53,211 bases of DNA from a virus (taxonomy: Duplodnaviria > Caudoviricetes), in the IMG/VR virus record IMGVR_UViG_3300025875_000036, positions 1 to 53,211 of that record, one strand, 5' to 3'. Positions 20,243-39,471 of this stretch are shown here, one piece after another. How positions within the stretch are numbered: position 1 is the first letter of the stretch; each line of letters starts with the position of its first letter. The notes beneath the pieces were generated by a model that had not been told where the DNA came from, made no database searches, and was given only the letters and a program-made list of their open reading frames with translations. The position numbers and the translations under genes are program-made.

Positions 20243-20500
20243 ATGGTTGAGGAGCTGACATCATTTGAGCGGGCTAAAATATCAAACTTAATACCGGAGC
20301 TGGCCCAGCGTACCGGCATTAGTTATAAAAAACTGGCGGCTATACTTTGCCCGCCTAAAAAAGATTACGGCCCCGGCACGGTTGTACGTATACCAATGAA
20401 GGAGGGCTGGGCTTACGAGCTAAGACAAGACCCAACCGGCTTATTATTAAAGGATGTAAGATATGAACGCGATTCAATTATTAAAGCGACGTTTACTTAG
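20243..20500 (+). CDS. Moron-like small protein with HTH-like N-terminus
   Basis: IPELAQRTGISYKKLAAIL; has its own promoter. Confidence 0.6.
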   Translation: MVEELTSFERAKISNLIPELAQRTGISYKKLAAILCPPKKDYGPGTVVRIPMKEGWAYELRQDPTGLLLKDVRYERDSIIKATFT

Positions 20501-22708: not shown

Positions 22709-22924
22709 ATGGAAGAAAAGTATTTTAATAAATTATTGAGGCGGGTTGCCACGGGCGACCTTGACCCGGTGGCCGGGGTGTACATTACCCAAGACCAGTA
22801 CGACACTTTAAAAAAGGTCGTTGACAGCAAATTAGGTGCCGCCGCCGTTACCCCGTTTAAGCGGAACGATTACTTGTATTTTTTAGAGCAAGCTAAAACC
22901 CGTATAAAAGAGGAAGTAAAATAA
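22709..22924 (+). CDS. Hypothetical protein
   Basis: 71 aa; TAATG coupling to the next gene. Confidence 0.6.
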   Translation: MEEKYFNKLLRRVATGDLDPVAGVYITQDQYDTLKKVVDSKLGAAAVTPFKRNDYLYFLEQAKTRIKEEVK

Positions 22925-23190
22925 TGATAAGTAACTATTTGCAGTTCCTAATATTTGCCGCCGGTACTAACGCGTTCGCGATGCATATACTTTATAAGTA
23001 TGACACCCCCCGGTTATACGATTACCACCGCCCCGTATGGTTCCCCGAGTGGTGCGACCCGTGTTGCGCTTTTTGGCTCGGTATGATTGCCGCCGTTGCA
23101 ACCTTTTTGGTTTGGCCCGCTTTGTTTAGCTGGCTTATATTTTTATTAGTGCCCGCCCTGGCCGCGTTCACCCTTTATATTTTAAGGTAG
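22924..23190 (+). CDS. Small membrane protein with C..C..FW motif
   Basis: 88 aa; three hydrophobic segments; WCDPCCAFW. Confidence 0.7.
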   Translation: MISNYLQFLIFAAGTNAFAMHILYKYDTPRLYDYHRPVWFPEWCDPCCAFWLGMIAAVATFLVWPALFSWLIFLLVPALAAFTLYILR

Positions 23191-23191
23191 C

Positions 23192-23455
23192 ATGGAGCGG
23201 ATAGCTTTACCGGGCGGTTATACCGTTGTCCAGGATTACACTAAAGAGGGGGAGCCTGTTTATATTGTGAGCGATAGGGGTGAGCGGGGTATTTTGCCGT
23301 TGGGGGTATTTATTAGCTCAACCGATGCCTCGCCTGATGTTTACGATGAGAACCGCCGATCTATTGACAGGGTTATACTCGGCGCTAAACGTTTAATACA
23401 CTATGAGCGCGGAGGCCTTACTAAAATTACAAGAGCTGATTTAGAACACGAGTAA
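23192..23455 (+). CDS. Hypothetical protein
   Basis: 87 aa, coupled on both sides. Confidence 0.6.
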   Translation: MERIALPGGYTVVQDYTKEGEPVYIVSDRGERGILPLGVFISSTDASPDVYDENRRSIDRVILGAKRLIHYERGGLTKITRADLEHE

Positions 23456-23904
23456 TGAGGGAACTAACATTAATTAAAAGCGGTATTACGGTCGGGGTGT
23501 ACGATGATATACATGAGTTACCCGAGTATAAGCTAATAGCTTTCCAGATTGCTTTAATGCAAGACGCCGGTATGGGGAGCAGCATTGAGGACGTCGACGC
23601 CCGGTTAGCCAAGTATGATAGTTTTTGCAGCGCGGGCAAATTGCCGGAGGCATTACGGGAGCGGGCTAACATGCGTTTGGGTATGTTTTTCCTCTTAGAG
23701 GGGGTAAGTACTAAGGCACTCGCCCTGGCCAACTTAGTAGCAACAATCGGCGGGGTGCCGGTAGCGGATGCAACGGATGAGGATATACTTAAAATAAGCC
23801 GGGTATTAATTAGCGGCGGTATTACCCACGGGGAACTTACCGGGTTAATAGATACCATAAAAAAAAAATTAACGGAGAGATTGAGCTATATTACCCCGAG
23901 TTAA
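23455..23904 (+). CDS. Tail assembly chaperone (gpG analogue)
   Basis: 149 aa ending IKKKL over an A10 slippery run. Confidence 0.7.
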   Translation: MRELTLIKSGITVGVYDDIHELPEYKLIAFQIALMQDAGMGSSIEDVDARLAKYDSFCSAGKLPEALRERANMRLGMFFLLEGVSTKALALANLVATIGGVPVADATDEDILKISRVLISGGITHGELTGLIDTIKKKLTERLSYITPS

Positions 23905-24239
23905 CGGAAAGCGATGCCGCCTTTGATTTTGCCATAAATGTTATCCAGCGGGCCTTGTTTAAAATAAAGACGGTAACCCAACCCGATTACCCCGGCTTAA
24001 TGGAGCAGATAGCAAAACTAAACGATTGGTTATTAACCCAGGCCCGGCCCCATAACTTTAACCCCGACGATGCCAAAAATATTATGGTGCAACAAGAGCG
24101 CTCGTTCGTTGAGGCTTGTACCGTGTTAGAGGCGGCGGGCGTACCACAACCGGAGCGCTTACCGGTATTTAAATTTTTAGCGCGGGTAAAATACTTTAAG
24201 GACAAAAACAGTAAACAACAGGACAATGAAAGAGTATAG
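23455..24239 (+). CDS. Tail assembly chaperone -1 frameshift product (gpGT analogue, ~261 aa)
   Basis: The -1 frame is open from the A-run at 23859-23868 through the 23955-24239 ORF (KKINGEIELYYPELTESDAAFDFAINVIQRALFKIK...). Confidence 0.7.
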
Positions 24240-25032
24240 CATCGAAAAGTTCCCTAAAAACAAAAAAGAGGACTCAAACCTGTTATCAAGAGAGCAAAAA
24301 CTAATAAGGTTAAAGTCTACTAAAAAGGTCTATACATACGGCGGGACGTTACAATGTAAAAGATGTACTACGGTTTTACCCATTACCGAGTTTTATGTAG
24401 CTAACAAGGAAACAGGACGGAGACACACCACGTGCCGGGATTGCAAATTAAAAGCGGCTGGCGTTCTGGAGGTGGGTAAACTAAGGTTCGCAAAAAAAAT
24501 ATTAACTAAAGGATTCAGGAGATGTAGTATTTGTAAAAACATCCAGCCCATTATTAATTTTTGTAATAGCAAATACGGTTCTTATGGCAAATCCAACACG
24601 TGCCGGGCTTGCTCCTACACCATGAGCCGGGAGTTTATAATCAAACATAAAAGCAACTTAAAGCCCGAGCCCAAATACTTTTTTAACGACCTAAAGTTTT
24701 TTACTAAAGAATCATTTGCCAACTACATTGCCGCCGAGTATAACTTAAAGCCGGATACGGTGTTAAAAAGAATAAAGGCCGGATACTCCAACGATAAGTT
24801 AGTATTAACCACCGGCTCAGCCCGGAGCATGGCGTACACCCAGGGCAAAATAAAGGTAACCGATACAATTACCGGGCAAACCCTTGTATTTACTAATACA
24901 TCGGATAAAGGCTTGACATCGATGTTTAGCGGCTCGGCGGTGCTTAAAGGTATAAGGACCGGCACCCCGACAAAGGTTACCAGTTTAAGCAAATATAAAA
25001 ACCCTTGTATTATTGAGAGAATAAAAGAATGA
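24226..25032 (+). CDS. Zn-finger repeat protein resembling the DNA-binding part of a homing endonuclease
   Basis: Two CxxC-x~20-CxxC units, a helix-turn-helix-like segment and a NUMOD-like C-terminus; no clear catalytic HNH or GIY-YIG motif. Confidence 0.6.
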   Translation: MKEYSIEKFPKNKKEDSNLLSREQKLIRLKSTKKVYTYGGTLQCKRCTTVLPITEFYVANKETGRRHTTCRDCKLKAAGVLEVGKLRFAKKILTKGFRRCSICKNIQPIINFCNSKYGSYGKSNTCRACSYTMSREFIIKHKSNLKPEPKYFFNDLKFFTKESFANYIAAEYNLKPDTVLKRIKAGYSNDKLVLTTGSARSMAYTQGKIKVTDTITGQTLVFTNTSDKGLTSMFSGSAVLKGIRTGTPTKVTSLSKYKNPCIIERIKE

Positions 25033-25050: not shown

Positions 25051-25413
25051 ATGAAACTAACTAACATATTAACCGGCACACTTACCCAGGGCAAATTATT
25101 AAAAGCCTGTTTATTAGCCGTCTTTATCCTCGGCACCTTTGTATCTATCCGCTCGTGCGTACAACGGGAACAGGTTGCCGCCGTTACCCGTAGCAATACT
25201 AAAACCTCTATCATCGACAGCGTCAAGACAGCTGAGCGCCGTATAGTAATAGACAGCTTAAAGGGAGAGCTAAAAAAAGGTGATAGCCTCCGCATAGTAG
25301 TAAACAACCTTAAAAAAGTAAACACTAATTTAACTAAGCAAAATGAGAAAAATCGCAAAAAGTATGACAGCCTTAATGCTGTTTTACGCTGGGTTCTCCG
25401 CCCCCGCTTTTAG
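25051..25413 (+). CDS. Spanin-like membrane/lipoprotein with coiled coil
   Basis: N-terminal TM ending SIRSC, then a coiled coil; overlaps the next gene by 71 nt. Confidence 0.5.
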   Translation: MKLTNILTGTLTQGKLLKACLLAVFILGTFVSIRSCVQREQVAAVTRSNTKTSIIDSVKTAERRIVIDSLKGELKKGDSLRIVVNNLKKVNTNLTKQNEKNRKKYDSLNAVLRWVLRPRF

Positions 25414-25831
25414 CCAGGTTGTAACGGACCCGTACACCCTATTAACAAGGGGCCAGCCGTCACCCTACGACACCGCCGTCGCCATACAAGTTAAAACGTA
25501 CCGAACGGAGACACTTAAAATGGAGCAAGCCGATAAGGTTATCAATGATTTACAAATCTCCAACAACTACTTAAAACAAACCCTATACCAGGCAGAGCTA
25601 AAAAGTAAGCAAAGCGAGGCGGTTCAGGCTAAAATTATCAGTGAGCAGGGTAAACAAATGGCAGAGGATGCCAAAACAAAAGAGGACTTTAAAAGGCAAT
25701 TTGATAAACTCGCTAAAGTAGCAAACCGCCCGCGAGGGTTTTTTAGGTCACCCGCCCTCTGGGGCACAATAGGGGCCGTATTAGGCGGGGCCGCATACCA
25801 CGGGATACATACATTTATTTTAAAACACTAA
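25343..25831 (+). CDS. Spanin-like secreted coiled-coil protein with C-terminal TM
   Basis: Signal peptide ending AFS-Q, coiled coil, then hydrophobic WGTIGAVLGGAAY. Confidence 0.5.
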   Translation: MRKIAKSMTALMLFYAGFSAPAFSQVVTDPYTLLTRGQPSPYDTAVAIQVKTYRTETLKMEQADKVINDLQISNNYLKQTLYQAELKSKQSEAVQAKIISEQGKQMAEDAKTKEDFKRQFDKLAKVANRPRGFFRSPALWGTIGAVLGGAAYHGIHTFILKH

Positions 25832-25835
25832 CACT

Positions 25836-26342
25836 ATGAACCAACCGAGTTTGAGTAAATCAGTAACAGTATTAGTAAAGTTTTTAAAAGAGGACGCCGA
25901 CTACCGAGAAGGGTGGTTGGCTAACATAGCAATGGCGTTCTCGGATGCTATCGCAAACGAGCTCGGGCCGGACATGAGCGGGGAGCTAACCCCGAACGAT
26001 ATACACCGGTTAAGCAATAAAGCGGCTAATGATTTTATAAACCGGCTTTGTACTACGGTAGAGCATAGTAATTTAATAGAGCCTGAGCCTGAACCCCAGC
26101 CGATGAGCCGTATTGATAAAGTAACGTTTGCAGATTTGTTTGATTTTACCGATGATGCACCGCTTAAAGAGGCCACGGATGCGATACAAGCCTTAAACAT
26201 AGTAGTAAACCAGATGCAGGGTAAACTGGAGGCGCTAAAATATAAACCGGTTAAACAAAGCAGCTTTAAGAAAGATTTATTACTTTTAGCGGCCACCGGT
26301 ATTGTTGCCGCCTTTGCACGGGCGTTGGCAAAGCCTAAATAA
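25836..26342 (+). CDS. Two-part protein whose C-terminal half copies the tape-measure N-terminus and ends in a TM helix
   Basis: DKVTFADLFDFTDDAPLKEA vs TMP DKISFSDLFDFGNDGELTKA; in-frame ATG at 26103. Confidence 0.7.
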   Translation: MNQPSLSKSVTVLVKFLKEDADYREGWLANIAMAFSDAIANELGPDMSGELTPNDIHRLSNKAANDFINRLCTTVEHSNLIEPEPEPQPMSRIDKVTFADLFDFTDDAPLKEATDAIQALNIVVNQMQGKLEALKYKPVKQSSFKKDLLLLAATGIVAAFARALAKPK

Positions 26343-26350
26343 AAAGCCTA

Positions 26351-29300
26351 ATGGATAAAATAAGTTTTAGTGACCTTTTTGATTTCGGTAATGACGGCGA
26401 ACTAACTAAGGCGGTACAATCACTCGAGGGGTTTGAGCAACAAATCCAGAAGCTGGGGACCGCCTTGCAGATGTTTAGCGACCGGAACGCTAAGGCCATG
26501 TCCGCGATTGTAAACGACTTAACCCGTAGCGAGGCCACCCTCAAAAAACTAAACGTAACAAGTGCCGACACCCAGCAACAGGCTATAAAATTAGCCGGTT
26601 CAGTGGATAAGGAGGTAGCACGTTGGAAAGAGCTGGAGGCCTCGCAAAAAGGTATTATCGCGACCCAGAACTTATTTAACCAAAGTGTCAACGGCTTAAA
26701 AGACCGGTTAAAGGTATTAGCTAAAGAGTTTGACGAGGTAATACAATCGCAAAACCCTGAACGCTGGAAACAGTTAGCCGGTGAGATACAGGATACGCGG
26801 GCCGAGATACAGATGATGACCTCCGCTACTAAGGCCACCCGCCAGGTAGTAGATGCCGCCGCCGGTAGTTATAACGCCCTCGTACAACAAAACACCGCTT
26901 TAACCAAAATATTAAAGTCCTCCACCGGGGGGATGGATAGCAACAGCGAGGCCGCTAAAGAGCTTAAAAAGCAAATATACGACAATACCCAACGGTTAAA
27001 GGAGTTTGACCGGGAGCTGAACCAGAACTTCCGCAACGTCGGTAACTACGCCCAGGGTATCATAGATGCTAAAAACGCCCTCAACCAACAAAAAGCAGCC
27101 TTAACAAGTGCCGTGGCCGCTTTAAACGAGCAAGCGCGGGCAACCGGGCGCTCAGCGGCGGAGCAAGACGAACTCCAAGCCGAGTTACGGCAAACACGGG
27201 CGGCGCTTGACGGGGTAAACAACGAGCTCAAGGCTTACGGGGTCGGGGTAACCGCCGCCGGGGGTATGGGCGAGAAGCTCGCCGGGGGTATAAAACGCAT
27301 GGGCCTTGAGGCCGTCGGGGCTTACGTAGGGTTCCAAGCATTGATTAGCGGGGTAACCGGTATAATAGGAGCCAACGGCGAGATAAGTGATAGCCAAGCA
27401 GATGTTATTAAAACAACCGGCGCAACGGCGGAGGAGGTTGATAAGTTAACCGCATCGTTCGCTAAACTCGACACCCGTACCGCCTTAAAGGATTTGCTGG
27501 ATATTGCAAAGGTAGGGGGTCAGCTCGGTGTTAGTGCCGCCGATGTTGAGGGCTTTACAAATGCAATGGATAAGGCTAACGTCGCCCTGGGTGATGAGTT
27601 TACCGGCGGGGCCGAGGAGATTGCCACAGCACTTGCTAAAATAAATAACGTATTCGGTATAAGTAAAGAGGTCGGTTTAGAGCGCGGGCTGACTAACATC
27701 GGTTCAGCTGTTAACGCCCTCGGTTCGGCGGGTGCCGCTACCGGCCCGTATTTGGCGGACTTTGCCCTCCGCGTCGGTGCCGTTGCTAAAAACATGGGGA
27801 TTAGTTTACCCAACGTTCTCGGCTACGGTGCCGCGTTAGAGGAGCTGGGTGTTAGTGCCGAGGTAGCGGGTACGGCGTTTAAACAAATAGTAACCGCAAT
27901 GGCCGCAAATAGTGAAGGCTTTTTTGATGTTGCAAGGATGGCAGATGCTAACCTAACCCTCAAAGAGTTCACTACTTTAATCAATACCGATGCAAACGCC
28001 GCTTTCCAAAAGTTTATCAAGGGGGCTAACGCCGGGGGTAAAGAGACGACAGCATTCGCATCAATCCTCGCAGAACTCAAGCTAAAAGGCGGGGGCGCTA
28101 ATACCGTTTTAACCTCGTTAGCAAAGGAAACGGACTTAGTGGCTAAACGGCAAAAGTTAGCCGCCGAGGAGATGATAAAGGGCACCAGCCTCACGGCTGA
28201 GTTTAACGTTAAGAACGAGAACCTCGCCGCCGGGCTTGCTAAATTAAAAAACAGCATAGTAAACACGTTCACGGGACAGGAGGTACAAAACTTCTTAAAG
28301 CAGGGGGTAAAAGGTTTAATCGACTTTATCGCCGTGACTAAGGAGGTAATAAGCGCCCTATATGAGAACCGTAACATTATCGGCCTCGTCCTCCTTGTAT
28401 TTGCCGCTTACCGGGTGCAACTATTGGCAACATCGGCGGCGGAAAAAGGCTGGGCTATAACGTTAGGCATTACCCGCCTGGGTATATTGCAACGCATAGC
28501 GGCAATGGCGGCGACAGTGCCCGCCCTATTAGGCCAGAAGGCCGCTATTATTGCAACGAGTGTGGCCGAGCGGGGCTGGGCGGCAACCATGACAATCTCG
28601 CGGGTTGCTATATTGCGTAATATAGTAGCCATGCGGGCCTGGGCGGCATCGTTTTTGATTAGTAACCCGGTAGGTATTGCCATTGTGGCCATAGCGGCCC
28701 TCGTTATAGGTTATAATAAGTTAAGCGAATCAAGTGAGCGCAACATCGGCGTCCAGGATAAGCTAAACAAGATACACGGGCAAAGTGAGTTCGCGATTGT
28801 AAAGGTAGGGCTGGCCCAGGGCAAAATAAATAAACAGGTTAACGACTACCTTAATTTAAGCCCTAAACAACAAGCCGCCCTCCGCGAGGAGATTGCGAAC
28901 CAAAAGAAGTTAGCAGAAGTCACCCTGAACCGTTTAGAGGCCCAGCGGATAGCAGCCGTACAACAAGCGAGCGAGGTTAACTACTATGACAAGCTGGCGG
29001 CAAACGTTAGGAGCTTTGTCAATGTTAGTGAGTACGCCTCGGAGTTAAGTATAGCACAATCAAACCGGATGAAGGCGGCATCGGCACAAAGCGCGGCGGA
29101 TATTAAAAAGCTACGCGATGCCATAAGCGGTTTTGATAAAGAACTGGAAACGATTAATAATAAGCAAACACAATCGGACGAGGAGAAACGGGCAACCGAT
29201 GAGGCTAATGCCGCCGCCGAGGCTGATAGACGCAAAAAGCGCTCGCTCGCCTTGTTGGAGTTGCAAAAGTTCAGGATAGAGCAGCAAGCCCTCGCCCTGG

Positions 29301-30574
29301 AGGAGTTTGTAGCCAACACCCAGGAGCAAAACGCGGTTTATACTAAGCAGTTCGAGGAGGGTAAAATTACCGCCGAGATGTTGCGGGATAAGATAGGCGA
29401 CACGGGGCTGGAGATACTAAACGCCCAACGGGAGGCATCGCTGGCCCGCATACGCATCGCCGGGGTTGAGCGGAATATATTACTAAGTAACGAGGAGCTA
29501 ATAGGCGAGGAGCGGACTAAGATAATTGAGGAGTACGGGGCAAAGGTTAGCGCAATACAAAAAAAGCTGGCTAAGGATTTAAATATCGAGGAGCTTGTAC
29601 CTACTTTACCCTCCGTAGACGTTGACGAGGTAACTAAAATTGAGGACGACGCCGTTGCCGCCTCGGTTAAACGTATGGCCGACTTCACGGCAAAGTATAA
29701 GGAGAACGAGGAGGCCCGTACTAAGTTATTAAAAGAGGAAGAGGAAAAACGTAAAGCTATACGGGAGGCGGGTTTAGCCTTTGCGGGCGAGGCGATTAAC
29801 GGGTTCTTTGAGTTGGGTGCCGTGTTTAACGAGCGCAACTTACAGGAGCTGGAGGTGCAAAAAGAAAAGGAGACCGCGTTAGCGGGGGACAACGAGGAGG
29901 CCAAAGCTAAAATCGCTGAGGATTACGATAAACGTATGGCCGCTTTAAGGGTTAAGCAAGCCAAAGCCGACAAGGTTGCCGCATTGTTTAATATTGCCTT
30001 AAATACGGGTATTGCCATAACTAAAGCCATAGCCGCCACGCCTATAACGTTCGGTTTACCGTTTAGTGCCTTTGCTTTGGCCCAGGGTGCCATACAAGCC
30101 GCCATAGTGCTTGCTAAACCGTTGCCGACTTATTACAAGGGGCGTAAAGGCGGGGCGGCGGAGTTTGCTATCACCAACGAGCTCGGGCCTGAGTTAAGGG
30201 AGCACCGGGGCAAATACTACCTCGACCCCCGGCCCGGCCCACAGCTGACTTACCTTGAGCAAGGCGAGAAGGTTTACACCAACGTAGAGACCGAGCGTAT
30301 GCTTAACAACATCGTCGAGGGGGATACAAATGTTAAGCACGTTACGAACTTGAGCAATAGTACGGCGGTTATCAGTAAGCAACTAAACCCGGCACCGCAA
30401 AGCAACGGAGCGGAGATGTTGGCAAAACGGTTTACCCAGCAAATCGGGCGGCTCGAGCAGGTTATCAAAAACAAAAAGGAGACCCACCTCGAGATTAATA
30501 AAAACGGGCTTGAGATTTATGTTACCGAGAGGAACAACAAAACGGAGTACATCAACAAACGATATCGCGGCTAA
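26351..30574 (+). CDS. Tail tape measure protein
   Basis: 1407 aa, Ala-rich and helical, with a TP901/PhageMin_Tail-like core, RNVGNY and NPVGIAIVAIAAL motifs. Confidence 0.95.
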   Translation: MDKISFSDLFDFGNDGELTKAVQSLEGFEQQIQKLGTALQMFSDRNAKAMSAIVNDLTRSEATLKKLNVTSADTQQQAIKLAGSVDKEVARWKELEASQKGIIATQNLFNQSVNGLKDRLKVLAKEFDEVIQSQNPERWKQLAGEIQDTRAEIQMMTSATKATRQVVDAAAGSYNALVQQNTALTKILKSSTGGMDSNSEAAKELKKQIYDNTQRLKEFDRELNQNFRNVGNYAQGIIDAKNALNQQKAALTSAVAALNEQARATGRSAAEQDELQAELRQTRAALDGVNNELKAYGVGVTAAGGMGEKLAGGIKRMGLEAVGAYVGFQALISGVTGIIGANGEISDSQADVIKTTGATAEEVDKLTASFAKLDTRTALKDLLDIAKVGGQLGVSAADVEGFTNAMDKANVALGDEFTGGAEEIATALAKINNVFGISKEVGLERGLTNIGSAVNALGSAGAATGPYLADFALRVGAVAKNMGISLPNVLGYGAALEELGVSAEVAGTAFKQIVTAMAANSEGFFDVARMADANLTLKEFTTLINTDANAAFQKFIKGANAGGKETTAFASILAELKLKGGGANTVLTSLAKETDLVAKRQKLAAEEMIKGTSLTAEFNVKNENLAAGLAKLKNSIVNTFTGQEVQNFLKQGVKGLIDFIAVTKEVISALYENRNIIGLVLLVFAAYRVQLLATSAAEKGWAITLGITRLGILQRIAAMAATVPALLGQKAAIIATSVAERGWAATMTISRVAILRNIVAMRAWAASFLISNPVGIAIVAIAALVIGYNKLSESSERNIGVQDKLNKIHGQSEFAIVKVGLAQGKINKQVNDYLNLSPKQQAALREEIANQKKLAEVTLNRLEAQRIAAVQQASEVNYYDKLAANVRSFVNVSEYASELSIAQSNRMKAASAQSAADIKKLRDAISGFDKELETINNKQTQSDEEKRATDEANAAAEADRRKKRSLALLELQKFRIEQQALALEEFVANTQEQNAVYTKQFEEGKITAEMLRDKIGDTGLEILNAQREASLARIRIAGVERNILLSNEELIGEERTKIIEEYGAKVSAIQKKLAKDLNIEELVPTLPSVDVDEVTKIEDDAVAASVKRMADFTAKYKENEEARTKLLKEEEEKRKAIREAGLAFAGEAINGFFELGAVFNERNLQELEVQKEKETALAGDNEEAKAKIAEDYDKRMAALRVKQAKADKVAALFNIALNTGIAITKAIAATPITFGLPFSAFALAQGAIQAAIVLAKPLPTYYKGRKGGAAEFAITNELGPELREHRGKYYLDPRPGPQLTYLEQGEKVYTNVETERMLNNIVEGDTNVKHVTNLSNSTAVISKQLNPAPQSNGAEMLAKRFTQQIGRLEQVIKNKKETHLEINKNGLEIYVTERNNKTEYINKRYRG

Positions 30575-37914: not shown

Positions 37915-38313
37915 ATGAGTTTAGAAGATATTGTTTCATGGGTTTTAAAAGTTGCCATTTTACCGATGTTAATAGGCTTGATAAACGCCCGTGATAACAT
38001 ACGGGATAACCGCCGGGATTTAAAAGAGAACGTGGAGCGGCTGGGTAAATTAGAGCTAAAAACCGCCGCAATAGAAAAAAAGGTTAGCGATGACGGTATT
38101 GAGTACCACAGCGCGTTAGCAACAATTAAAAGTGTAGACACCTTAATTGATGTTAAGTTAACCGCGTATTTTAAGGAATTAGCCCAACAGAGACACCAGG
38201 ACTATCAAAGTATACGCGATATTAGCGGGCAACTCGAGGGGGTTTTGCGCGAAATTAGCGTTGAGATGAAGCACTTAAAAGAGGATGTAAAAGAAATAAA
38301 AGCATCGAGATGA
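37915..38313 (+). CDS. Single-TM coiled-coil lysis protein (holin/antiholin-like)
   Basis: N-terminal TM followed by a coiled coil; first gene of the lysis cassette. Confidence 0.55.
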   Translation: MSLEDIVSWVLKVAILPMLIGLINARDNIRDNRRDLKENVERLGKLELKTAAIEKKVSDDGIEYHSALATIKSVDTLIDVKLTAYFKELAQQRHQDYQSIRDISGQLEGVLREISVEMKHLKEDVKEIKASR

Positions 38314-38864
38314 TAGATAACTTATTAAACGCCGCCGACAAATCGTTCGGCTCCCTTTTACCGGTAGTTTTGTGGCTTACCGTGCTCATTGTTGTTTTAT
38401 ATTATACCGGTGTTTTTAAATGGTGGCAAAACAATTACGAGGAATGTGCCCGCGATAACGCCACGGGTAAGTTTAGTATAACTAACCAACTCCGTATCTG
38501 GTTCGGTATTGCCTTTATTATTAGGTGGTTTGCCAACGGTTTTGATATTGTAACCGTGCCCGCGTTTAAGTTAGTGCCGCAAAAGATGGACTTATCTGAG
38601 ATGGCTTTAATATTTGGGTTTCTCTCCGGTAGTTATGCCGTCCAGCAATACTTAAAAAAGAAGGAGTTTAACAACCCCGAGCCCGCTACGGTAAACGTAA
38701 ACGACACGGCCCAGGCGACGGTAATAACGCCCGGCACCGGCCCGGTAACAGAGCCGGGTAAAATTAATTGTCCCAAAGCGGCGGCAGAGGCGGCGGCACG
38801 AGCAGCTGGGGCTCCGTTCGTTGTAGATAAAAGTAAAGCCGACCCCGGCGTTATAAATGAATAG
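38310..38864 (+). CDS. Holin (probable)
   Basis: Three hydrophobic segments, G.FS...L motif, overlaps the endolysin start. Confidence 0.6.
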   Translation: MIDNLLNAADKSFGSLLPVVLWLTVLIVVLYYTGVFKWWQNNYEECARDNATGKFSITNQLRIWFGIAFIIRWFANGFDIVTVPAFKLVPQKMDLSEMALIFGFLSGSYAVQQYLKKKEFNNPEPATVNVNDTAQATVITPGTGPVTEPGKINCPKAAAEAAARAAGAPFVVDKSKADPGVINE

Positions 38865-39471
38865 CGATGCCTTTTTTAATGCTGTTAAGCGCGATATTTT
38901 TGGTGGCCGCAAATACAACCAGGGCCAGGTCGACACCTTAAATAATATAATCGCGGAGTGTACAGAGCAGAAGGTTTTTGACTACCGGTTTACGGCGTAC
39001 ATACTTGCAACGGCATACGCGGAGAGTTATAGTAGAAAGAGCAACCCCACCTGGGCACCCGTCCGCGAGGGGTTTGCTGTTACTAACGCCGGGGCGATTG
39101 CGGCGGTTACCGCCCTACACAAAGCCGGGCGGATTAGCACTAATTACGCCCTCCCCCATAAAAACGGGTTAAGCTATTACGGGCGGGGCTGGGTACAAAT
39201 TACCCACGGAACTAACTACGATAAAATCGGGCGCTATTACGGCCTCCCGTTATACACGAACCCCGACCTGGCTTTGCGCCGGGATGTGGCCGCTAAACTT
39301 TTAGTGGGTGGCTTGTTGGAGGGGTGGTACACCGGAGTCGGGTTGCCTGATTTTATTACAAGTAAAAAAACGGACTTTGTACAAGCCCGAAGGATAGTAA
39401 ACCGGTTAGACCGGGCGGAGGAGATAGCGGGGTATGCGAACGATTTTTATAACGCGATGATTATACTGTAA
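38857..39471 (+). CDS. Endolysin, glycoside hydrolase family 19
   Basis: AYILATAYAES, P.RE, YYGRGWVQITHGTNY, NPDLAL and ARRIVN motifs. Confidence 0.9.
   Translation: MNSDAFFNAVKRDIFGGRKYNQGQVDTLNNIIAECTEQKVFDYRFTAYILATAYAESYSRKSNPTWAPVREGFAVTNAGAIAAVTALHKAGRISTNYALPHKNGLSYYGRGWVQITHGTNYDKIGRYYGLPLYTNPDLALRRDVAAKLLVGGLLEGWYTGVGLPDFITSKKTDFVQARRIVNRLDRAEEIAGYANDFYNAMIIL

What the first reader, a model, noticed from the sequence alone, without database searches (positions are those of the whole stretch)
26103..26440. Membrane-anchored mimic of the tape-measure N-terminus encoded just upstream of the TMP
Seen: from the in-frame ATG at 26103 the upstream gene reads MSRIDKVTFADLFDFTDDAPLKEATDAIQALNIVVNQMQGKL, which aligns with the TMP start MDKISFSDLFDFGNDGELTKAVQSLEGFEQQIQKL. 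It then ends in a hydrophobic helix (LLLLAATGIVAAFARALAK). The DNA has diverged while the residues are kept, implying selection on the protein. It is joined by an EPEPEPQP linker to a separate ~80-aa domain. Known: TMP ends engage chaperones and tail-completion proteins, TMP acts at the membrane during injection, and some defence and exclusion systems target TMP or tail assembly. Inference: a TMP decoy that titrates a host sensor, blocks superinfecting DNA entry, or tethers tail assembly to the membrane.
Basis: partly seen in the sequence, partly recalled or inferred. Interest (0 to 1): 0.72.

Follow-up and report, generated by a model that had tools for sequence, protein, structure and literature searches.

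The report
Membrane-anchored copy of tape-measure N-terminus
A groundwater phage and one relative keep, just upstream of the tail tape measure gene, a small membrane protein that carries a diverged but clearly selected copy of the tape measure's first ~45 residues; what it does has not been tested.

Summary
Residues 92-137 of the 168-aa ORF 25836-26342 are a significant copy of the TMP N-terminus (BLASTP E 3e-7; 0 of 2000 shuffles reach the score; 71 bits against a family profile). The protein ends in a hydrophobic helix.

A phage with a 65%-identical TMP has the same element as a free-standing 71-aa gene in the same slot. Three more distant relatives have the TMP motif but no copy.

Between the two copies only three things are kept: the 12-residue core (8 of 12 identical, against 6 of 32 after it), the hydrophobic spacing of the following helix (12 of 13 positions), and the C-terminal helix. 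So it is selected, not a scar.

The motif heads a large TMP family (46 of 65 hits are 794-1813-aa proteins matched from residue 1-7). In phage 80alpha the equivalent strand-plus-helix docks on the tail completion protein.

The ATG at 26103 has a poor start context, so the window's product is probably the 168-aa fusion.

Function is untested. My best reading is an accessory, membrane-tethered mimic of the TMP cap. No integrase and no promoter of its own were found, so a prophage-style exclusion gene is not supported.

The parts
25836..26342 (+). 168-aa ORF: N-terminal helical domain + acidic Pro-rich linker + copy of the TMP N-terminal cap + C-terminal hydrophobic helix
   Evidence: No Pfam, PHROG, NCBIfam or PADLOC family. 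The only cluster-mate is a 99%-identical variant.
25836..26078 (+). N-terminal domain, residues 1-81, three predicted helices; absent from the relative's gene
   Evidence: AF2 model has low confidence (pLDDT 43.6), helices 6-19, 21-43 and 53-77. Atlas model gave no informative match. No paralogue in the window or in the loci. No similarity to the L003 55-aa ORF.
26079..26102 (+). EPEPEPQP linker (residues 82-89)
   Evidence: modelled without secondary structure.
26103..26246 (+). Copy of the TMP N-terminal cap (residues 90-137); the 12-residue core is residues 93-104 (26112-26147)
   Evidence: (71.0 bits, E 4.7e-15).
26274..26330 (+). C-terminal hydrophobic helix (residues 147-165), preceded by a Lys-rich stretch; predicted tail anchor
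   Evidence: Kyte-Doolittle 19-residue mean 1.79. Not detectably derived from the TMP: at least 150 of 1000 shuffles reach the score in each of 4 comparisons.
26351..30574 (+). Tape measure protein, 1407 aa; its N-terminal cap is 26351-26485
   Evidence: PF10145 and 12 PHROG TMP families. Cap model: arm 1-15 and helix 16-79, pLDDT 78.6.
25343..25831 (+). 162-aa protein with a signal-peptide-like N-terminus and a Gly-rich C-terminus, overlapping the gene before it; conserved in L003 and L009
   Evidence: 45.5% identity to L003.
25051..25413 (+). 120-aa protein with an N-terminal TM helix and a coiled coil; forms a spanin-like overlapping pair with the 162-aa gene
   Evidence: 36% identity to L003.
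23455..24239 (+). Tail assembly chaperone G (23455-23904) and its -1 frameshift extension (frame open 23814-24239); A10 slippery run at 23859-23868
   Evidence: Both ORFs hit phrog_8914, at profile positions 8-143 and 179-249 of 250. Frame and A-run are conserved in L003.

Best explanation
The gene encodes a small tail-anchored membrane protein. Its cytoplasmic part displays a paralogous copy of the TMP's N-terminal 'cap': a short strand-forming arm with the core DK(I/V)TFxD(L/I)FDF, followed by an amphipathic helix. It arose by duplication of the 5' end of the TMP gene in the common ancestor of this phage and one relative. It has been kept by selection on three features only: the core peptide, the helix periodicity and the hydrophobic tail.

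It most likely works by mimicry. Held at the inner membrane, it would dock onto whatever the real cap docks onto. By analogy with phage 80alpha, that is the other TMP N-termini and the tail completion protein that sits between the TMP and the DNA end.

It is sporadic among relatives, evolves fast and varies in architecture. I therefore read it as an accessory, conflict-type or entry-control factor of the HK97 gp15 kind of job: acting on the cap/completion-protein/DNA-end complex of incoming or co-infecting related phages. I do not read it as a core assembly part.

Shown: the copy, its conservation pattern, the predicted anchor and the gene context. Inferred: topology, binding partner and biological role.
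For: Copy is real.

Conserved as a free-standing 71-aa gene in the same slot of a phage whose TMP is 65% identical.

Selection pattern:
- Core 8/12 identical between the two copies against 6/32 in the next 32 columns. The binomial P for 8 or more of 12 at that rate is 3.7e-4.
- 12 of 13 family-hydrophobic positions are kept in both copies.
- Both copies keep a C-terminal hydrophobic helix.
- Both ORFs stay open although off-frame stop density is 0.08-0.09 per codon. By my arithmetic, a random 71-79-codon stretch would stay open about 0.1-0.2% of the time.

The motif is a functional module of a large TMP family. 46 of 65 hits are 794-1813 aa with the match starting at residues 1-7, with strong column conservation.

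An 80alpha preprint (passages read) shows that TMP residues 1-37 form a strand plus a helix. Three such strands join the hairpin of the tail completion protein in a five-stranded sheet.

HK97 gp15, a small inner-membrane exclusion protein, is encoded between the chaperone and TMP genes (PMC3594210, passages), which is the same slot.

Accessory character: absent from 3 of 5 related records that keep the TMP motif. It is the least conserved syntenic gene, at 29.6% against 36-65%. It is fused to an extra domain here but followed by an extra 55-aa ORF in the relative.
Against: There is no direct evidence of expression, membrane insertion or binding.

Only two independent genomes carry it, and the exhaustive profile search found no third membrane-anchored copy.

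It sits in the late tail operon with gaps of 4 and 8 nt and no promoter or terminator of its own. None of 5 related records has an integrase. It is therefore not a prophage-expressed moron like gp15.

A mimic made together with the phage's own TMP could interfere with the phage's own tails.

The tail completion protein of this phage could not be identified.

The AF2 model of the 168-aa protein is unreliable (pLDDT 43.6). The monomer model of the TMP cap shows an arm and a helix but no strand.

The Lys counts on the two sides of the window's helix (about +4 against +3, from the sequence) make the topology call weak for this copy.
Confidence: 0.35

Rival explanations
1. Tail-assembly helper or virion passenger. 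The copy joins the phage's own TMP cap, or holds the completion protein, during assembly. It either tethers nascent tails to the membrane or rides in the tail lumen, where its hydrophobic helix would be shielded like the TMP's own, and is ejected with the TMP into the next host's membrane.
For: It lies directly upstream of the TMP in the late tail operon and is probably co-expressed. The TMP itself carries three hydrophobic segments. The cap is a docking module. Earlier unchecked notes of this scan read short cap copies in other phages this way.
Against: Three relatives with the same TMP cap, whose records are 97-100% complete, lack it, so it is not needed for the cap to work. It evolves faster than every structural neighbour. 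Its architecture differs between the two carriers.
Confidence: 0.25
2. Neutral remnant of a recombination accident at the TMP 5' end, in a slot where cassettes are swapped. It would be read through by chance and have no function.
For: The slot is a swap site. Relatives carry three different endolysin families there, and an HNH-like gene is polymorphic in the population. Only two carriers are known. The region after the core is about 19% identical.
Against: The ORF is open in both lineages despite near-saturated divergence. Conservation is concentrated in the core (P 3.7e-4). The helix periodicity is kept at 12 of 13 positions, and a hydrophobic C-terminus is kept in both. Conserved residues carry synonymous differences.
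Confidence: 0.1
3. Anti-defence decoy. The cap copy soaks up a host sensor that recognises TMPs, either at the membrane or in the cytoplasm.
For: Host systems that bind TMPs exist. SNIPE acts at the inner membrane (PMC13190303, passages). Avs18 senses TMPs (PMC13581612, passages).
Against: Those systems were reported to depend on other TMP regions: residues about 100-150 and 300-400 for SNIPE, and a central segment of about 130 residues for Avs18. Late co-expression would not protect the phage's own DNA at entry. A copy of the epitope could trigger a sensor rather than block it. No PADLOC match.
Confidence: 0.08
4. Lysis-module membrane protein, such as a holin/antiholin-like regulator or a spanin partner, whose cytoplasmic part happens to derive from the TMP. 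It might couple lysis timing to tail assembly or to superinfection.
For: In relatives the slot between the chaperone and the TMP holds endolysins and holin-like genes. The gene follows a spanin-like overlapping pair.
Against: No PHROG lysis family matched. The window's endolysin, with two N-terminal-TM proteins before it, lies 12.5 kb away. L009 has the full cassette without this gene.
Confidence: 0.08

Closest known systems
HK97 gp15 superinfection-exclusion moron (PMC3594210, passages read)
   Same: [quoted passage not shown] Its effect depends on features of the incoming phage's tail.
   Different: gp15 is a YebO-like protein with its own promoter and terminator and is expressed from a prophage. 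It has no TMP similarity. Here the protein is a TMP paralogue fragment with no transcription signals of its own, no Pfam family, and no integrase in the record.
TMP N-terminal cap docked on the tail completion protein in the phage 80alpha/SaPI1 neck (bioRxiv 10.1101/2024.12.10.627806, passages read)
   Same: It is an N-terminal arm followed by an amphipathic helix, about 37-45 residues, at the extreme N-terminus of the TMP. The family here has the matching pattern, and both copies keep it.
   Different: There is no detectable sequence relation to 80alpha. Here the module is on a separate small membrane protein, not on the TMP. The completion protein of this phage was not identified.
Stand-alone copies of TMP pieces noted elsewhere in this scan (e1-6183786, e1-6098083, e1-5865861, e1-6036991; AI notes, unchecked)
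   Same: They are small genes that copy a docking end or a segment of the phage's own TMP. Some lie just upstream of the TMP and some are membrane-anchored.
   Different: They come from other TMP families and other genomes. Here an N-terminal cap copy is combined with a C-terminal membrane anchor, and in this window with an extra N-terminal domain. None has experimental support.
Tail assembly chaperone G/GT
   Same: It is encoded upstream of the TMP and acts on the TMP.
   Different: The real G/GT pair is 23455-24239, with an A10 slippery run. The finding is a different gene three genes downstream, with no frameshift and no similarity to it.

Membership tests
TMP N-terminal cap module (profile A4, built here from 5 TMPs and the 2 copies) | Significant match to the motif profile or to the TMP N-terminus | tested here: met
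   71.0 bits, E 4.7e-15 in 1.84 billion proteins, though the sequence is itself a row of the profile. Independent pairwise tests.
TMP N-terminal cap module (profile A4, built here from 5 TMPs and the 2 copies) | Hydrophobic residues at the 13 family-conserved positions (4, 6, 9, 10, 12, 18, 21, 22, 25, 28, 32, 35, 39) | tested here: met
   12 of 13 in the window copy and 12 of 13 in the L003 copy. The five TMPs score 11-13 of 13.
Tape measure protein | Module at the extreme N-terminus of a long protein (about 800-1800 aa) with the PhageMin_Tail core | tested here: not met
   The module lies at residues 92-137 of a 168-aa protein with no PF10145 match. It is a fragment paralogue, not a TMP.
HK97 gp15-type exclusion moron | Small membrane protein encoded between the chaperone and TMP genes | tested here: met
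   Position. Hydrophobic helix. This is a prediction only.
HK97 gp15-type exclusion moron | Own promoter and terminator, expression from a prophage | tested here: not met
   Gaps to the flanking genes are 4 and 8 nt. No sigma-70-like site or terminator flanks the gene, but that scan does not cover other promoter types. No tyrosine or serine recombinase in 5 of 5 records.
HK97 gp15-type exclusion moron | YebO-family sequence | tested here: not met
   0 Pfam families at E 0.01 or below.
HK97 gp15-type exclusion moron | Blocks DNA entry of superinfecting phage | not testable with these tools
   Needs the host and the phage; the record is a groundwater metagenome contig.
80alpha-type cap/tail-completion-protein interface | The arm forms a beta-strand that pairs with the completion protein's hairpin, and the helices bundle | tested here: inconclusive
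   The monomer model gives a non-helical arm 1-15 and a helix 16-79 at pLDDT 78.6. The partner was not identified.
Holin, antiholin or spanin | Match to a lysis family, or adjacency to the endolysin | tested here: not met
   No PHROG lysis hit. The window's endolysin is at 38857-39471. Only relatives have endolysins in this slot.

The most novel reading that the evidence does not exclude
Phages can turn the docking cap of their own tape measure into a membrane-tethered micro-protein. From the cytoplasmic face of the inner membrane it would capture the TMP-cap/completion-protein/DNA-end complex of an incoming or co-infecting relative. That would be a new, mimicry-based way to control DNA entry or tail completion. 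It could be part of a wider, undescribed class of 'TMP-piece' mini-genes, since unchecked notes of this scan report several in other phages.
Probability: 0.25. Interest if true: 0.8.

Novelty: new variant of a known kind. Interest (0 to 1): 0.55.

Why it matters
The N-terminal end of tape measure proteins is the least understood part of the tail. A naturally occurring, selected, membrane-tethered copy of just that end marks the first ~40 residues as a self-contained docking module, and it offers a ready-made probe for finding what they bind. If the copy acts on incoming or rival phages, it would add a mimicry-based mechanism to the short list of known injection-stage exclusion systems. My five full-text searches found no description of such a protein. 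That library omits most subscription journals.

Tried and rejected
- **Hydrophobic tail from the TMP:** I tested whether the copy's hydrophobic tail also derives from the TMP, which would make it an internal-deletion mini-TMP. It does not. In 4 comparisons of the C-terminal parts with both TMPs, 150 to 983 of 1000 shuffles reach the observed score.
- **More carriers:** GenBank phages by tblastn and blastn gave no match. The word-index protein search with the 168-aa protein found only a 99% variant, and with the 79-aa part found nothing. The metagenome scan returned only the same relative again. The viral-contig scans returned that same relative, three more distant phages and three still more distant TMP loci, none with a copy. 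The genome-contig scan found no relative.
- **A closer relative, out of reach:** A phage with a 72%-identical chaperone exists (P0068), but its contig could not be reached.
- **Short hits in the exhaustive search:** P0009, P0015, P0025, P0030, P0033, P0039 and P0045 have no hydrophobic tail and look like TMP N-terminal fragments. P0021, P0048, P0049 and P0051 are unrelated repeat proteins.
- **Family libraries:** The 168-aa protein matches nothing in Pfam, PHROGs, NCBIfam or PADLOC.
- **N-terminal domain:** The Atlas gave only generic helical-bundle look-alikes. It has no paralogue in the window or loci.
- **Structure of the 168-aa protein:** pLDDT 43.6, not usable, so no fold search was run.
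- **Tail completion protein:** No PDB sequence match for the ORFs at 20463 and 20900. No HK97-gp10-like match in 5 records.
- **PDB search with the cap profile:** Only chance coiled-coil hits, at E 0.44 and above.
- **Expression:** No RNA holder was listed.
- **Population variation:** Contigs of three groundwater runs gave a single difference in the gene (25945 A>T, Asp37Val), too little for a selection test.
- **Co-variation of copy and TMP:** Leu in both window sequences and Ile in both L003 sequences at core position 9. This rests on two pairs only and is not evidence.
- **Nucleotide-level explanation:** A conserved promoter or start region is rejected, because conserved residues use different codons.
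Full report
**What is there.** The window is a 53,211-bp, 99%-complete virus record from groundwater metagenomes. ORF 25836-26342 encodes 168 aa:
- a roughly 81-residue N-terminal part;
- an EPEPEPQP linker (residues 82-89);
- a segment from Met90 (ATG at 26103) that reads like the start of the TMP;
- a Lys-rich stretch;
- a C-terminal hydrophobic helix.

The TMP (26351-30574, 1407 aa; PF10145 and 12 PHROG TMP families) starts 8 nt after the stop of this ORF.

**Is the similarity real?** Yes.
- BLASTP gives 16/36 identities, E 3e-7 for the pair.
- The Smith-Waterman score is 76, against 40.4 +/- 5.3 for 2000 shuffles of the 168-aa protein. None reaches 76.
- tblastn and a profile scan of the whole record find exactly these two copies.
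- The DNA copies are old. Conserved residues use different codons, so this is conservation at the protein level and not a recent duplication or a conserved DNA signal.
- The hydrophobic tail passes the Kyte-Doolittle criterion (1.79). It is not detectably derived from the TMP.

**Relatives.** A viral contig (L003, the same phage as L007, L008 and L010) has a TMP that is 65% identical. In the same slot it has a free-standing 71-aa gene. That gene begins directly with the motif and ends in a hydrophobic helix (Kyte-Doolittle 2.03). A 55-aa ORF and then the TMP follow it.

Three more distant phages (L009, L011, L013; best-segment TMP identity 30-44%) keep the motif at the TMP start but have no second copy anywhere in their 97-100% complete records.

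An exhaustive profile search of 1.84 billion representative proteins gave 65 hits at E 1e-3 or below:
- 46 are proteins of 794-1813 aa matched from residue 1-7, that is, TMPs;
- 2 are the window protein and the L003 protein;
- 7 are short proteins without a hydrophobic tail that look like TMP fragments;
- 10 are matched elsewhere in the protein, or are repeat proteins.

So the motif is the conserved head of a large TMP family. The membrane-anchored copy is known from two phage lineages only. A closer relative exists (chaperone 72% identical, P0068) but could not be reached.

**Selection.** Between the window and L003, syntenic proteins are 36-65% identical and the copy is 29.6% identical. That identity is not spread evenly:
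- 8 of 12 in the core, the same as between the two TMPs;
- 6 of 32 in the next 32 columns, where the TMPs share 18 of 32.

The binomial chance of 8 or more of 12 at the background rate is 3.7e-4. At the 13 positions that are hydrophobic throughout the family, each copy keeps 12. So the amphipathic helix behind the core is kept in kind though not in letter. Both lineages also keep an open frame and a hydrophobic C-terminus, although off-frame stop density is 0.08-0.09 per codon.

**Which product?** Gene starts in this phage are preceded by A+T-rich sequence (mean 68% over 51 starts), and only 10 of 51 have an SD-like word. The figure is 80% before 25836, 70% before the TMP and 30% before 26103. 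The window therefore most likely makes the 168-aa fusion. L003 makes the 71-aa form. A free N-terminus is thus not required for the copy.

The extra N-terminal domain has no relative in the libraries, the window or the loci. Its model is unreliable.

**Context.** The true chaperone pair is 23455-23904 plus a -1 frame open from 23814 to 24239. It has an A10 slippery run that is conserved in L003.

Between it and the TMP lie:
- an HNH/EndoVII-like gene that is polymorphic in the population;
- an overlapping pair of envelope proteins, 120 aa with an N-terminal TM helix and 162 aa with a signal-like N-terminus, conserved in L003 and L009;
- the finding itself.

In L009, L011 and L013 the same slot holds endolysins of three different PHROG families, plus holin-like genes in L009 and L013. 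The window's own endolysin is at 38857-39471, behind two proteins with N-terminal TM helices. The slot is thus a cassette-exchange site for envelope-directed genes.

No tyrosine or serine recombinase is present in any of the five records. No promoter-like or terminator-like site flanks the gene.

**What the motif does in TMPs.**
- A TP901-1 study (PMC5099701; abstract and passages) found the N-terminal 154 residues essential. It proposed contact with the terminator or connector.
- An 80alpha/SaPI1 neck preprint (passages) resolves TMP residues 1-37. Each of the three copies gives one strand to a five-stranded sheet with the hairpin of the monomeric tail completion protein. Their helices bundle with its helices, and the completion protein touches the DNA end.
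- T5 may differ (passages).
- The family here fits that anatomy. An AF2 model of TMP 1-80 with a 59-row alignment has a non-helical arm 1-15 and a helix from 16 (pLDDT 78.6). A strand would form only in a complex.

I checked it in the preprint.

**Mechanism.** The shared, selected part is a docking module, and the private part is a membrane anchor. So the simplest mechanism is mimicry at the membrane. The copy would join or compete for the sheet-and-bundle formed by TMP N-termini and the completion protein.

On the role, sporadic occurrence, fast evolution and variable architecture point to an accessory, conflict-type or entry-control function. The positional analogue is HK97 gp15, an inner-membrane exclusion protein encoded between the chaperone and TMP genes (PMC3594210). 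However, the moron and prophage features of gp15 are not met here.

The rivals are an assembly helper or lumen passenger, a decoy for TMP-sensing defences, a lysis-module protein, and a neutral remnant. None could be tested.

**Novelty.** Five full-text searches found no description of a membrane-anchored copy of a TMP N-terminus. That library omits most subscription journals. Unchecked notes of this scan list small copies of TMP ends in other phages, so this may be one case of a wider class that has not been published.

**Verdict.** It is a real, selected and unusual small gene, known from two lineages. The binding logic is plausible and the function is untested.

Noticed in passing
window 23455-24239: Tail assembly chaperone with a textbook -1 frameshift. 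G is 23455-23904, and the -1 frame is open from 23814 to 24239. An A10 run lies at 23859-23868 and is conserved in L003. In L013 the two parts are one 259-aa ORF.
   Followed up: partly
window 24226-25032: An HNH/EndoVII-like gene lies between the chaperone and the envelope-protein pair and has no counterpart in L003. Contigs in two runs join a different sequence immediately before 25051, so the insertion is polymorphic in the population.
   Followed up: partly
L009 3366-4264; L011 3113-3715; L013 3033-3877: In three relatives the slot between the chaperone and the TMP holds endolysins of three different PHROG families, with holin-like membrane proteins beside them in L009 and L013. This places a lysis cassette inside the tail operon.
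   Followed up: partly
window 25051-25413 and 25343-25831: Overlapping gene pair: one protein has an N-terminal TM helix and a coiled coil, the other a signal-like N-terminus and a Gly-rich C-terminus. It is conserved in L003 and L009 and has a spanin-like layout, but a Cys in the signal-like N-terminus occurs only in L003. No family match.
   Followed up: partly
window 22924-23190: An 88-aa membrane protein with a conserved W/R-C-x-x-C motif is encoded in the tail module. It is present in all five related phages (L003 3549-3839, L009 2245-2592, L011 2013-2351, L013 1894-2199) and matches no family.
   Followed up: no
window 37915-39471: A second envelope-directed cluster: two proteins with N-terminal TM helices (132 and 184 aa), followed by a GH19-like endolysin.
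   Followed up: no
L003 6222-6389: A 55-aa soluble helical ORF lies between the relative's cap copy and its TMP. It is absent from the window and unrelated to the window's N-terminal domain.
   Followed up: partly
window 26351-30574: The TMP has three hydrophobic segments that pass the TM threshold, at residues 676-694, 768-786 and 1236-1254.
   Followed up: no
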